A DNA stretch of 26,402 nucleotides. Origin: a virus. Lineage: Duplodnaviria > Heunggongvirae > Uroviricota > Caudoviricetes. A program made the position numbers. Location: positions 1-26,402 of IMG/VR virus record IMGVR_UViG_2541047828_000003. One strand, written 5' to 3'. Positions 24,001 to 26,402 of the stretch are shown here, one piece after another (positions within the stretch are counted from its first letter, which is position 1; each line of letters opens with the position of its first letter).

Positions 24001-26402
24001 TTCGCAGGGTTTTGGCTACTTTCACGTGCGAACCTGCAGAATTGCAAAGGACAACTAAGTCCTCTGGCCAACTCCCGGTTTATGAGCGACACAGTCCGCC
24101 TGGCGCATCGTTTTCGTCGAGTGCGCCCATCAGCTTGTCCATGGACTATCCACCACTCGATATTAAAGCTAATCATTGGTTGCCAGCCCGCGAATCAAGT
24201 TTGTTCTGGATCCAAGCTTCAACCTCCTCAAGCGACCATCTAGCTGATCTACCAATTTTAACTGGCTGTGGAAACGTGCCCGTCTTAACCCATGAGTAGA
24301 TTGCCGTTTTCTTGAAGCCCGTTCTGAGCATAACTTCGCTTAATTTGATAAGGCGCATAGAGGCTCCTCTGCTTTAGATTAAGCATAGTGACAATCTGGC
24401 TTTGGCGGTATCCAAAAGCGAGGTATCCATGTTGGTATCCACCAAAACGCTGTTTACCAAAAAAGTTACCACCGGAACAGGACATTTTGAGCTGTAACTT
24501 AACACATAGCATATGGAGTTCACGCATAGACTTCACGCACAACGGCTCCGGCCAGTGAAGAATCACCCTGGCTGGCAATATAATGCCGATCACCATCAGA
24601 GGGGGATCCATGACACCACGAGAAATCGAGCTGCTGACCATTGCCAAGCTGGAGCATGACGGCCACCAGCTCAGCCCGGCAGAACTGCGGGAATTAAGGC
24701 GCCAGCTGGCAGAGGGCCCTGTAATAGCCAGGCGGTACCGCGAAATGATGACCAGCCCCGCATATCGCTGGAGCAAACCAGCGCCGCTCCGTGCGCGGTG
24801 AGCAGCACCTAACCAGCACTAGACAAGCCCTGTGCTGGTGGATGTCCCTCATAATTAGCGGTTTTTAAACAGCGTGTTGGTTCACGGCCTCTTTTTGTTG
24901 GTTCAAAAATGGGGTGTGTTGGTTCACTTTTTGCGAATAATTCTTTTAAAAACAATACTCTTTACAAATTGAACCAACTGAACCAACTGAACCAACACCT
25001 TTTTGCTTATCTATATAGTCTGAGAGGCAGAAATGATAAGGGACAGGAAAGCTGAAGATCTGGAGTCAAAAGGGCTATACCGGAGAGCTGCCGCACGATG
25101 GGCAGAAATCATGATGCTGGCAGATGGCGATAAAGAACGTGAACATGCAGCAAACAGACGCTCTGAATGTATCCGTAAGGCGGCACGCCAACCAGCAACT
25201 ACAGACAGATTCGGAGATTTAAGACAGGCAGTTAAGCGAACTCATTCGGCTCTTGGTATGGATGAGGAAGCGAGAGGGTACTTCAGGCGTTATCGCGATA
25301 AAGATTGCCAGAGACAGTAATGCTCTCTCTGTTTTGGCAAATTACCCCTCACTTTGAAGAGATCGGAGCTATAAAAATGGTGTTATCCGGCTTCCTCAAA
25401 TTGAGGTTTCCGAAAATATCAGCGGGTTAGCGATTAATCTGGCGAGTAATTAAACTGCGAAAATTTCGTAGGGGGTTACGAAAATTTCGTAGGTCTACTC
25501 ATGGTTTAGGCTTACTTTCCCGACATCCCCCAATGGGTGGGGGCGAAATAATCAATGGGTTAGGCTTACCTCCCCCATTTCCTGCATTGCAGGTTTTCGA
25601 AAGAATCAATGGGTTAGGTCATCGTGCAAATTTGCACTCTGACAGCCAACGCAATTTCTCGTTGGCGGAAATATCAGGTATTTACTGAACGAACGGTCTA
25701 CCCGCCTGTTCAACTACCAGTTGTACATGGCTGCTTTATGTGCAAATGGTGGTGAGAGAAAATTGTTTGGGGGTACTTTTGGGGGTATCTTCAAAGATGT
25801 AATTGGAAAATATCTTTATATATCAATGTATTTTTATTGTTTGTTTTGTTCCTATTATCGCACCATTTAAATCAATAAGTTACCCCATATTTAAATACAC
25901 CACGTTTCCTCCTGTGCCGTATTTGTGCCATTGTAACCCTGGCAATTCATCAAAATACTGTTCTGACATCAGGCAATGCAGGTGCAGACATTTAAGCCAA
26001 TTGCTGCCGCCATTCCTTGACGTGGTCAATCAGGGCGCGGAGCTTTGGTGCAATATTGCGACGCTGTGGGAAATACAGATAGAAGCCTGGAAATTGTGGA
26101 AGAAAGTCATCAAGCAGCGATACAAGCTTACCGCTTTCAATATATGGCCTGAAAGTTTCCTGAGTGGCAATTGTTATTCCTTCACCGACAAGAGCCAGCT
26201 GCAACATCAGACGCAGATCATTAGTCGTAATCTGCGGTTCAATCGCAAGGTCGAAAGTTCTCCCGTTTTCTTCAAATGGCCAGCGATAAGGCGCAACCTC
26301 CGGGGACTGACGCCAGCCGATACACTTATGGGTATTTCCCCCGGAGGCGAGAAAGCGCTCTCCACGCCCGGCCGCAAGGATCAGGACGACGGGGGCAGGC
26401 AT

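What the first reader, a model, noticed from the sequence alone, without database searches (positions are those of the whole stretch)
24874..24999. Second, inverted copy of the origin 7.4 kb downstream, bracketing the cargo region
The reverse complement of 24951-25000 is identical to 17361-17409 over 49 bp, and the rest keeps the same iteron/AT-rich/iteron layout with a diverged spacer. This could be a P4 crr-like cis-acting partner site, or the origin of a second decayed satellite joined head-to-head. Inverted repeats of this length could also mediate inversion of the intervening 7.4 kb, which holds the ejection-like operon, the moron and the second alpA.
Basis: seen in the sequence. Interest (0 to 1): 0.6.

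Follow-up and report, generated by a model that had tools for sequence, protein, structure and literature searches.

The report
Mirror-image second half of a satellite origin
The inverted second "origin" is real. It is the conserved mirror-image partner of the replication origin of a single phage satellite (an EcCIMP1-type island of E. coli), separated here from its twin by 7.5 kb of inserted cargo genes; it is not a relic of a second element and not an inversion switch.

Summary
Observation confirmed. Window 24868-25003 is an inverted copy of the iteron origin at 17357-17480: 55 nt exact, 105/138 overall, 12 GTTGGTTCA iterons against 0.22 expected.

Both copies lie inside one att-bounded 17.8-kb island (8079-25867). 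It is a variant of the published PICI EcCIMP1, which excises and is transduced as one unit.

In about 56 relatives from more than 20 enterobacterial genera, a two-part origin is the usual layout. The parts are ori1 directly 3' of the Toprim-DUF927 primase-helicase gene, plus an inverted ori2.
- About 28 loci have the two parts within 0.5 kb.
- About 13, including this window, have them 0.6-9 kb apart with cargo between.
- About 15 show no second copy in the sequence available.

The iteron core differs between lineages (7 classes), and the distal set uses the same core as the proximal one. ori2 has its own conserved signature and is always inverted.

No inversion isomer was found: 0 genomes against 364 with the native junction.

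Best reading: a second binding and loading array for the island's own initiator, comparable in function to P4 ori plus crr, possibly also controlling the adjacent perC gene. Initiator binding and a requirement in cis remain untested. The "second decayed satellite" and "invertible segment" readings are not supported.

The parts
8079..8097 (+). attL core (TCCTATTATCGGCACCATT), which is the 3' end of tRNA-Thr thrW; left boundary of the island
   Evidence: Direct repeat with 25850-25867, and identical to the tRNA-Thr 3' end in L001. The same core, TCCTATTATC, was confirmed by sequencing attP for EcCIMP1.
14579..17338 (+). pri-rep: Zn-ribbon primase + Toprim + DUF927 primase-helicase, the presumed initiator that reads the iterons
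   Evidence: Pfam PF08273, PF13362, PF06048. The N-terminal 359 aa are 33% identical to P4 alpha.
17357..17480 (+). ori1: tandem iterons 17364-17390, A+T-rich spacer 17391-17433, spaced inverted iterons 17434-17474
   Evidence: It best fits the ori1 profile (140.9 bits, against 101.2 for the ori2 profile).
17505..17513 (+). conserved linker motif CTGGCTGGC that follows ori1 across the family
   Evidence: In compact relatives it lies between the two origin units.
17923..22759 (+). cargo between the two origin halves: a small conserved ORF (17923-18084) and P22-like ejection genes gp14 (DUF2824), gp7, gp20, gp16-like
   Evidence: Pfam PF11039, PF25688, PF16928; RefSeq annotation of the identical region.
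24173..24358 (-). alpA_1, the second AlpA-family gene, on the inner side of ori2
   Evidence: Pfam PF05930, E 1.9e-13. It is dispensable for excision and transfer in EcCIMP1.
24583..24801 (+). small conserved ORF (MTPREIELLTIAKLEH...), just inside ori2 and reading towards it
   Evidence: Homologues are annotated in L005 and MP1. The overlapping 163-aa minus-strand ORF is probably not a real gene.
24868..25003 (-). ori2, the finding: spaced iterons 24876-24884, 24897-24905 and 24918-24926; A+T-rich spacer 24927-24969; tandem iterons 24970-24996
   Evidence: It best fits the ori2 profile on the minus strand (152.3 bits, against 93.2 for the ori1 profile).
24997..25032 (+). conserved outer flank of ori2: TTTTTGCTTATC at 25000, TATATAG at 25012, GAGAGG (Shine-Dalgarno-like) at 25022, directly before the perC ATG
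   Evidence: The same T-run, TATATA box and A-run follow the distal tandem iterons in most relatives. No consensus sigma-70 promoter was found by the scan.
25033..25320 (+). perC-family regulator gene, immediately outside ori2
   Evidence: Pfam PF06069, E 3e-32.
25850..25867 (+). attR core (TCCTATTATCGCACCATT); right boundary of the island
   Evidence: Arm-like repeats TGGGGGTA lie at 8209/8221 and 25768/25780.

Best explanation
The element at 24868-25003 (ori2) is the distal, mirror-image half of a two-part iteron origin. It belongs to the same EcCIMP1-type phage-inducible chromosomal island that carries ori1.

Each half is a complete origin unit of the PICI type: tandem iterons, an A+T-rich stretch that could melt, then phased inverted iterons. 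Both halves present the recognition sequence of the island's own Toprim-DUF927 primase-helicase.

In most relatives the two halves lie back to back within about 300 bp, just 3' of pri-rep. In this island, and in at least a dozen other lineages, a module of helper-interaction and accessory genes lies between them.

Most likely mechanism: Pri-Rep binds both arrays, so ori2 acts in cis as a second binding and loading site. Functionally this resembles the ori plus crr pair of satellite P4, whose crr also sits directly 3' of the primase-helicase gene. In addition, the conserved T-run/TATATA box on the outer edge of ori2 lies 20-35 nt before the next gene (perC here, ssb or others elsewhere). It probably serves as that gene's promoter or operator, which would link initiator occupancy to expression.

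Shown here: the anatomy, a single att-bounded element, conservation, fixed orientation, joint change of iteron sequence, and absence of inversion isomers.
Inferred: Rep binding, cooperation or firing at ori2, and promoter activity.
For: (a) One element. The att cores at 8079 and 25850 enclose both copies. The island is 99.2% identical to EcCIMP1 over 8079-19393 and 97.9% over 23203-25101. EcCIMP1's ends were determined by sequencing attP, and it is transduced as one unit. MP1 itself carries both arrays.

(b) A family feature. Iteron maps of about 56 Pri-Rep loci from more than 20 genera gave about 28 with an inverted distal set within 0.5 kb. About 13 have it 0.6-9 kb away: L046, L066, L086, L065, L039, L017, L042, L064, L025, window, L059, L023, L031. 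It always aligns better inverted than direct.

(c) Joint change of iteron sequence. Seven iteron cores occur (GTTGGTT, GTTGTCT, CGGGTTA, GTCGGTT, GTCGGGT, GTGGGTT, TTATCCC). In each class the distal tandem set uses the same core as the proximal set.

(d) Selection. In an alignment of ori2 from 11 loci, iteron columns are 94% conserved and the other columns 74%. The inner 36 nt of ori2 is more alike between islands (0.69) than ori1 and ori2 are within one island (0.58). An ori2 profile outscores an ori1 profile at every distal site. The copy is therefore an old, maintained paralogue and not a recent duplicate.

(e) In E. coli, all 26 evenly sampled records with a full ori1 hold at least 2 places.

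(f) Circular records of related islands include both arrays (L086, a 12.2-kb 'plasmid'; L002) or an adjacent pair (L087).

(g) P4 precedent. Iteron clusters occur in crr, directly 3' of alpha, and in ori 4.5 kb away. The Pri-Rep N-terminal domain is homologous to alpha.

(h) The outer flank, TATATA box, Shine-Dalgarno-like sequence and ATG are arranged the same way in several iteron classes.
Against: No experiment shows Rep binding to ori2 or any cis requirement.

About 15 relatives show no second array within the sequence available. At least 10 of them have 10 kb downstream, although in L027, L036 and L048 gene order suggests it may lie just beyond the fetched stretch. The second array is therefore not universally required.

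For a different PICI (EcCICFT073), a cloned rep gene plus its adjacent ori was enough for plasmid maintenance (PMC6092414).

Two islands keep an intact GTTGGTTCA-type ori2 although their replicase and ori1 have a different specificity: L006 (DUF5906 replicase) and L061 (TTATCCC iterons). About 200 E. coli genomes carry ori2 without ori1. ori2 can therefore persist without a matching initiator, at least over short evolutionary times.

No consensus sigma-70 promoter was detected at the ori2-perC junction.
Confidence: 0.55

Rival explanations
1. A module-boundary repeat with no role of its own. On this view ori2 is a duplicated origin unit that is neutral or nearly so. It persists because it sits at a junction where islands exchange cargo modules by homologous recombination, and it simply travels with the right-end module (perC, the RHH-like gene).
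For: ori2 survives next to perC in loci that lack any Toprim-DUF927 gene (L003, L004) or that have a swapped replicase (L006, L061). Cargo between ori1 and ori2 differs completely between islands while the flanks stay conserved. About 15 relatives have no detectable second copy.
Against: Neutral DNA would not keep all six iterons, their 21-bp phasing and an A+T-rich spacer across more than 10 genera while the surrounding intergenic DNA cannot be aligned. Nor would the distal iterons follow the proximal ones through seven specificity classes. ori2 has its own conserved signature, more conserved between islands than ori1 is.
Confidence: 0.2
2. Mainly a transcriptional operator or promoter. The iteron array and its TATATA-box flank control the outward gene (perC here, ssb elsewhere) and the inward gene (the RHH-like gene, or alpA_1). 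The initiator would act only as a repressor or activator, with no part in replication.
For: The conserved T-run/TATATA/A-run flank lies 20-35 nt upstream of an SD-ATG in the window and in L020, L054, L058, L064 and L087. An RHH-like gene starts 40-200 bp inside ori2 in L002, L017, L023, L025, L031, L064, L065 and L086.
Against: ori2 keeps the complete origin-unit anatomy, including the A+T-rich stretch and the phased inverted iterons, which is more than an operator would need. No sigma-70 consensus was found. The genes next to ori2 vary between islands.
Confidence: 0.15
3. The origin of a second, decayed satellite fused head-to-head with the first.
For: The inner side of ori2 carries a second alpA-family gene on the opposite strand. 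thrW is a site where elements pile up in tandem.
Against: Both copies lie within one att pair, and EcCIMP1 excises as a single circle with sequenced ends. There is no pri, int or other backbone remnant beside ori2. The same inverted pair occurs adjacent, within 300 bp, in most relatives and in seven iteron classes. alpA_1 resembles the helper phage's excisionase according to the paper.
Confidence: 0.04
4. An invertible segment: the 55-65-nt inverted repeats mediate flipping of the 7.5-kb cargo, giving two functional isomers.
For: Perfect 55-nt inverted repeats are long enough for occasional RecA-dependent recombination.
Against: The predicted recombinant junction is absent from all 5426 complete E. 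coli genomes (no place with at least 80% coverage), while the native junction is present in 364. No invertase or recombinase gene was found among the ORFs scanned in the segment. In most relatives the two units are adjacent, with nothing to invert.
Confidence: 0.03

Closest known systems
Origin of Gram-negative and Gram-positive PICIs/SaPIs (two iteron sets flanking an A+T-rich region, immediately 3' of the rep gene; PMC6092414)
   Same: Each of the two units here has exactly this anatomy. ori1 sits directly 3' of pri-rep.
   Different: The published description is of one unit. Here the family carries two mirror-image units. The second can lie up to 9 kb away, and it has its own conserved outer flank.
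EcCIMP1, the E. coli MP1 PICI mobilised by the P22-like phage Kapi1 (PMC11773190)
   Same: Same thrW att core, integrase, alpA, AntA, Ash, Toprim-DUF927, ejection-like genes, alpA_1 and a perC-family gene. Identity is 99.2% and 97.9% over the shared blocks. MP1 carries both arrays.
   Different: The window's island is 17.8 kb, not 19.96 kb. It has a different gp20/gp16/19.4-23.2 kb block and a different perC allele, and it lacks the pRiA4b-ORF3 module. The paper's text contains no occurrence of 'iteron', and its two hits for terms beginning 'ori' include none to a replication origin among the passages shown.
Satellite phage P4 ori plus crr (cis replication region)
   Same: Two separated clusters of one iteron on one small replicon. 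One cluster lies directly 3' of the primase-helicase gene and the other kilobases away. The initiator's Zn-ribbon/Toprim primase domain is homologous (33% identity, E 2e-41).
   Different: The iteron sequence differs. crr is two direct 120-bp repeats, not one inverted unit. The helicase and DNA-binding half of the initiator is DUF927, not D5_N/DUF5906/Pox_D5. In P4 the alpha-proximal site is the accessory one. That P4 replication needs crr in cis, and that alpha loops the DNA between ori and crr, is from my own knowledge of the P4 literature and was not re-read here.
Palindromic origins of superfamily-3 helicase initiators (SV40 large T, papillomavirus E1), where two hexamers assemble head to head
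   Same: Mirror symmetry of the binding sites around stretches that can melt.
   Different: This is only an analogy from my own knowledge. No homology was tested, and here each half is itself a complete two-sided unit.

Membership tests
PICI (Gram-negative, EcCIMP1 type) | Integrase plus flanking att direct repeats at a dedicated site | tested here: met
   Integrase at 8261-9475. att cores at 8079 and 25850, equal to the thrW 3' end.
PICI (Gram-negative, EcCIMP1 type) | alpA master regulator downstream of int, and a pri-rep gene with an iteron ori immediately 3' of it | tested here: met
   alpA at 9903-10106, Pri-Rep at 14579-17338, ori1 at 17357-17480.
PICI (Gram-negative, EcCIMP1 type) | Helper-dependent excision, circularisation and high-frequency transfer | not testable with these tools
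   Shown experimentally for EcCIMP1 of MP1. The window's island is 98-99% identical over the backbone but was not itself tested.
PICI (Gram-negative, EcCIMP1 type) | No phage structural or lysis genes | tested here: inconclusive
   No capsid, terminase, tail or lysis genes were found inside 8079-25867. It does carry homologues of the P22 ejection proteins gp14/gp7/gp20/gp16.
PICI/SaPI-type origin unit | [quoted passage not shown] | tested here: met
   ori2 has 3 spaced iterons, a 43-nt spacer of 79% A+T, and 3 tandem iterons. ori1 is built the same way.
PICI/SaPI-type origin unit | Located immediately 3' of the replication initiator gene | tested here: not met
   ori2 lies 7.5 kb from pri-rep, and no pri remnant adjoins it. 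ori1 meets this criterion.
P4 ori/crr two-part origin | Two separated clusters of the same iteron on one replicon, one directly 3' of the primase-helicase gene | tested here: met
   P4 layout.
P4 ori/crr two-part origin | Initiator is a P4 alpha homologue along its whole length, including the helicase and origin-binding part | tested here: not met
   Only residues 8-362 align (33%). The C-terminal half is DUF927, where alpha has D5_N/DUF5906/Pox_D5.
P4 ori/crr two-part origin | crr made of two direct 120-bp repeats carrying type-1 iterons (8-nt repeats in the P4 record) | tested here: not met
   A single inverted unit with GTTGGTTCA iterons.
P4 ori/crr two-part origin | The second site is required in cis for replication and is bound by the initiator | not testable with these tools
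   Needs deletion and replication assays and binding assays.
Invertible DNA segment | Both orientations present in natural populations | tested here: not met
   The recombinant junction is in 0 genomes and the native junction in 364.
Invertible DNA segment | A dedicated invertase or recombinase encoded in or beside the segment | tested here: not met
   No recombinase domain in the ORFs scanned between 17.5 and 25 kb. The only integrase of the island is at its left end.

The most novel reading that the evidence does not exclude
The origin of this satellite family may be a true two-part device. Two mirror-image units would cooperate at a distance, through initiator-mediated looping or as two oppositely oriented loading sites, and the gap between them would serve as the family's cargo bay for helper-specific DNA-delivery genes. 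Because the units are inverted repeats on a small circle, recombination or fork reversal between them during replication could turn theta replication into double rolling-circle replication, as in the yeast 2-micron plasmid. That would yield the concatemers a headful-packaging P22-like helper needs.
Probability: 0.12. Interest if true: 0.7.

Novelty: new variant of a known kind. Interest (0 to 1): 0.45.

Why it matters
PICI origins are described as a single iteron unit next to the rep gene. Here a large DUF927-replicase family of enterobacterial satellites, which includes capsid-forming PICIs and the experimentally mobilised EcCIMP1, carries a mirror-image pair. The two halves can be pulled kilobases apart by cargo.

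If the distal half is functional, three things follow.
- The minimal replicon of these elements has to be redefined.
- The module boundaries would be explained: cargo and helper-interaction genes are bracketed by initiator-binding arrays.
- The result would be a tractable second example, besides P4 ori/crr, of origin function at a distance.

It also has a practical use for annotation. An orphan ori2-perC module marks the right-end remnant of such an island in about 200 E. coli genomes.

Tried and rejected
- Second decayed satellite: rejected. There is one att pair, no second pri remnant, and the pair is a family-wide architecture.
- Inversion switch: rejected at the level of assembled genomes by the chimeric-junction search.
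- Consensus sigma-70 promoter or terminator at the ori2/perC junction: none found. The promoter idea therefore rests only on the conserved TATATA-SD-ATG arrangement.
- Recent homogenisation (gene conversion) as the cause of the similarity between ori1 and ori2: not supported in general. Same-island ori1/ori2 pairs are no more alike than cross-island pairs (0.58 and 0.58), while ori2 copies are more alike between islands (0.69). The window's 55-nt identity may still reflect local conversion.
- ori2 always next to perC: rejected. perC follows ori1 directly in L017, L023, L027, L031 and L032, and follows ssb in compact islands.
- The 163-aa minus-strand ORF 24285-24776 as a conserved gene: probably an artefact of the conserved 72-aa plus-strand ORF 24583-24801.
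- Similarity of ori2 to helper-type phage DNA (a possible pac site): one unrelated Klebsiella phage record, and no P22-like phage record, matched in the phage collection.
- Locating EcCICFT073 in CFT073, to compare with an experimentally validated PICI origin: my guessed coordinates hit a lambdoid prophage, and I did not pursue it.
- Literature search for a described second origin in PICIs: nothing found in the held library.
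Full report
**1. The observation**

The repeat is real and far beyond chance. The repeat finder gives inverted arms 17357-17421 / 24939-25003 (65 nt, 94%) and a weaker pair 17440-17478 / 24893-24931. The longest exact match is 55 nt (17357-17411 against the reverse complement of 24949-25003). The whole units align at 105 of 138 columns.

Both copies consist of three tandem GTTGGTTCA, a 43-nt spacer of 84% or 79% A+T, and three spaced inverted iterons, which in the distal copy lie exactly 21 bp apart. The 9-mer occurs 12 times in the window, all in these two clusters, against 0.22 expected. 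It is the only significant internal repeat of the island, and no second pri-like coding remnant adjoins the distal copy.

**2. Context**

The window is E. coli. From 8077 onwards it matches a thrW (tRNA-Thr) island between proA and the yagP remnant/paoD. The att core TCCTATTATCG(G)CACCATT occurs at 8079 and 25850, with arm-like TGGGGGTA repeats just inside each end. Both origin copies and perC therefore lie inside one 17.8-kb att-bounded element.

Gene order:
- int, alpA, AntA-like, Ash-like, several small ORFs
- Toprim-DUF927 primase-helicase (14579-17338)
- ori1
- a small ORF, then P22-like ejection genes gp14/gp7/gp20/gp16-like
- minus-strand ORFs, including a second alpA-family gene
- ori2 (inverted)
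- perC
- attR

This is a variant of the published PICI EcCIMP1 of E. coli MP1. It is 99.2% identical over 8079-19393 and 97.9% over 23203-25101. EcCIMP1 excises and circularises only when the P22-like helper Kapi1 is present, and Kapi1 transduces it. Its ends were fixed by sequencing attP, which has the same core, TCCTATTATC. alpA_1 is dispensable (PMC11773190). A search of that paper found no occurrence of 'iteron' and no passage about a replication origin among those shown. MP1 nevertheless carries both arrays.

**3. Comparative evidence**

In E. coli the ori1 query hits 568 genomes. Of these, 368 have the full ori1, and all 26 evenly sampled full-ori1 records hold at least two places.

A scan of one genome per species with the Pri-Rep protein returned about 60 full-length relatives in more than 20 enterobacterial genera. 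Iteron maps, profile searches and direct reading show three layouts:
- About 28 loci have ori1 and an inverted distal set within 0.5 kb.
- About 13 have the distal unit 0.6-9 kb away: L046, L066, L086, L065, L039, L017, L042, L064, L025, the window, L059, L023, L031.
- About 15 show none in the sequence available. For some of these, gene order suggests it lies just beyond the fetched flank.

In every case the distal unit is inverted, with its tandem iterons outermost. Beyond them lies a conserved flank, a T-run, GCTTATATATA and an A-run, that ori1 lacks.

**4. Evidence that the distal unit is maintained and matches the initiator**

- Seven iteron cores occur in the family (GTTGGTT, GTTGTCT, CGGGTTA, GTCGGTT, GTCGGGT, GTGGGTT, TTATCCC). 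In each class the distal tandem set uses the same core as the proximal one.
- Across 11 loci, ori2 iteron columns are 94% conserved against 74% for the remaining columns, and the outer DNA is not alignable.
- The inner 36 nt of ori2 is more similar between islands (0.69) than ori1 and ori2 are within an island (0.58, the same as cross-island pairs). ori2 is therefore an old paralogue with its own signature, not a recent duplicate.
- At every distal site the ori2 profile outscores the ori1 profile, and the reverse holds at the proximal site. This includes loci not used to build the profiles (L042, L040, L054, L038, L061, L086, L087).

**5. Evidence that tempers this**

- Two islands keep an intact GTTGGTTCA-type ori2 although the replicase and ori1 have another specificity. 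L006 has a P4-alpha-like DUF5906 replicase with its own iterons, themselves arranged as two inverted sets 1.1 kb apart around two genes. L061 has TTATCCC iterons.
- About 200 E. coli genomes carry ori2-perC without ori1, as right-end remnants at thrW or in rearranged loci.
- Some relatives have no second unit.
- For another PICI, rep plus the adjacent ori was enough for plasmid maintenance.

The distal unit is therefore probably accessory and not essential.

**6. Inversion**

I built the junction that recombination between the arms would create and searched all 5426 complete E. coli genomes. No place covers at least 80% of it, whereas the native junction is present in 364 genomes. No invertase or recombinase gene was found among the ORFs scanned in the segment.

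**7. What lies between and beside the halves**

The DNA between ori1 and ori2 is variable.
- Here it holds P22-type ejection genes.
- In other genera it holds tape-measure proteins (L023, L059), SLT-domain proteins (L025, L064), or Dit, baseplate hub and gpV spike (L039).
- Fic, Beta-protein, PemK and Tlde1 genes also occur.
- In the 12-kb circular record L086 only a small ORF and an RHH-like gene lie between them.

An RHH-like gene reading inward starts 40-200 bp inside ori2 in many relatives. In the window it is replaced by alpA_1 and a small conserved ORF. On the outer side, the TATATA box lies 20-35 nt before an SD-ATG in several iteron classes: perC here, ssb or other genes elsewhere. The simple sigma-70 scan finds nothing there.

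**8. Mechanism proposed**

ori2 is a second binding and loading array for the island's own Pri-Rep. It acts in cis together with ori1, and its outer edge probably doubles as a promoter or operator for the next gene.

The nearest functional precedent is P4. There, iteron clusters in crr (directly 3' of alpha) and in ori (4.5 kb away) are annotated in the phage record. The N-terminal primase domain of Pri-Rep is homologous to alpha. The helicase and DNA-binding half is not, and the repeat architecture differs. This is therefore 'works like', not 'is a member of'.

Binding, looping, firing at ori2 and promoter activity are all inferences.

**9. Verdict**

The crr-like reading is partly supported. 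The second-satellite and inversion readings are not supported.

The island and the PICI origin unit are known. The mirror-pair origin, and its splitting by cargo, were not described in the papers I could search. I rate it a new variant of a known kind, of moderate interest.

Noticed in passing
window 1-8076: A different, low-G+C element ends at the same thrW att core. It has a phage major capsid protein E homologue (2656-3684), a Dit-like tail protein (5865-6575) and a minus-strand tyrosine integrase (6657-8021) abutting the att core at 8079. The window therefore holds two elements integrated in tandem. This part is absent from the otherwise identical locus L001.
   Followed up: partly
window 17923-22759; L023, L059, L025, L064, L039 between their ori1 and ori2: In this satellite family the segment after ori1 encodes DNA-delivery or tail-tip proteins whose type differs between islands. 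These are P22 ejection proteins here, tape-measure proteins, SLT-domain proteins, or Dit, baseplate hub and gpV spike elsewhere, perhaps matching the helper's tail type. This suggests the satellites supply their own ejection or tape-measure proteins.
   Followed up: partly
window 19393-23203: This block (most of gp20, the gp16-like gene and the 139-aa membrane-like ORF 22778-23197) is not conserved with EcCIMP1 of MP1 at megablast level, although the flanks are 98-99% identical. PGAP marks the gp16-like gene as C-terminally truncated in the identical locus L001.
   Followed up: no
L006 21467-22690 (E. coli EC5502): The same island backbone, but the replicase module is swapped for a P4-alpha-like Zn-ribbon/Toprim/DUF5906 protein. 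Its own iterons (GGTGGTACAGGT) also form two inverted sets about 1.1 kb apart around two small genes. The GTTGGTTCA ori2 remains beside perC as an orphan.
   Followed up: partly
window 17505-17513; L039, L042, L065, L047, L063 after ori1: A conserved CTGGCTGG(C/T)GG linker follows ori1 throughout the family. In several Serratia and other relatives it contains an exact E. coli Chi sequence (GCTGGTGG); in the window it reads CTGGCTGGC, which is not Chi.
   Followed up: no
L086 (NZ_CP148430.1, 12,152 bp), L087 (NZ_CP069874.1, 15,995 bp), L002 (NZ_LT599831.1, 19,226 bp): Records deposited as small circular 'plasmids', or as a separate 'phage' contig, are in fact complete satellites of this family. 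One is a Klebsiella capsid-forming PICI with an adjacent ori1/ori2 pair. This is consistent with episomal circular forms being captured by assembly.
   Followed up: partly
window 24583-24801 (+) versus 24285-24776 (-): The conserved gene next to ori2 is probably the small plus-strand ORF (MTPREIELLTIAKLEH...). It has annotated homologues before the pRiA4b-ORF3 gene in L005 and MP1. The longer overlapping minus-strand ORF is probably not real.
   Followed up: partly
L003 (E. coli O111:NM FWSEC0005): The perC-ori2-alpA_1 block lies at a junction between the zur/dusA region and ykgL. This implies a large chromosomal rearrangement with a breakpoint in island remnants.
   Followed up: no
PQ569648.1 100970-101087: A 106-kb Klebsiella phage record (P12620-1) contains an ori2-like sequence (81% identity over 120 nt). 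It was the only hit in the phage collection.
   Followed up: no
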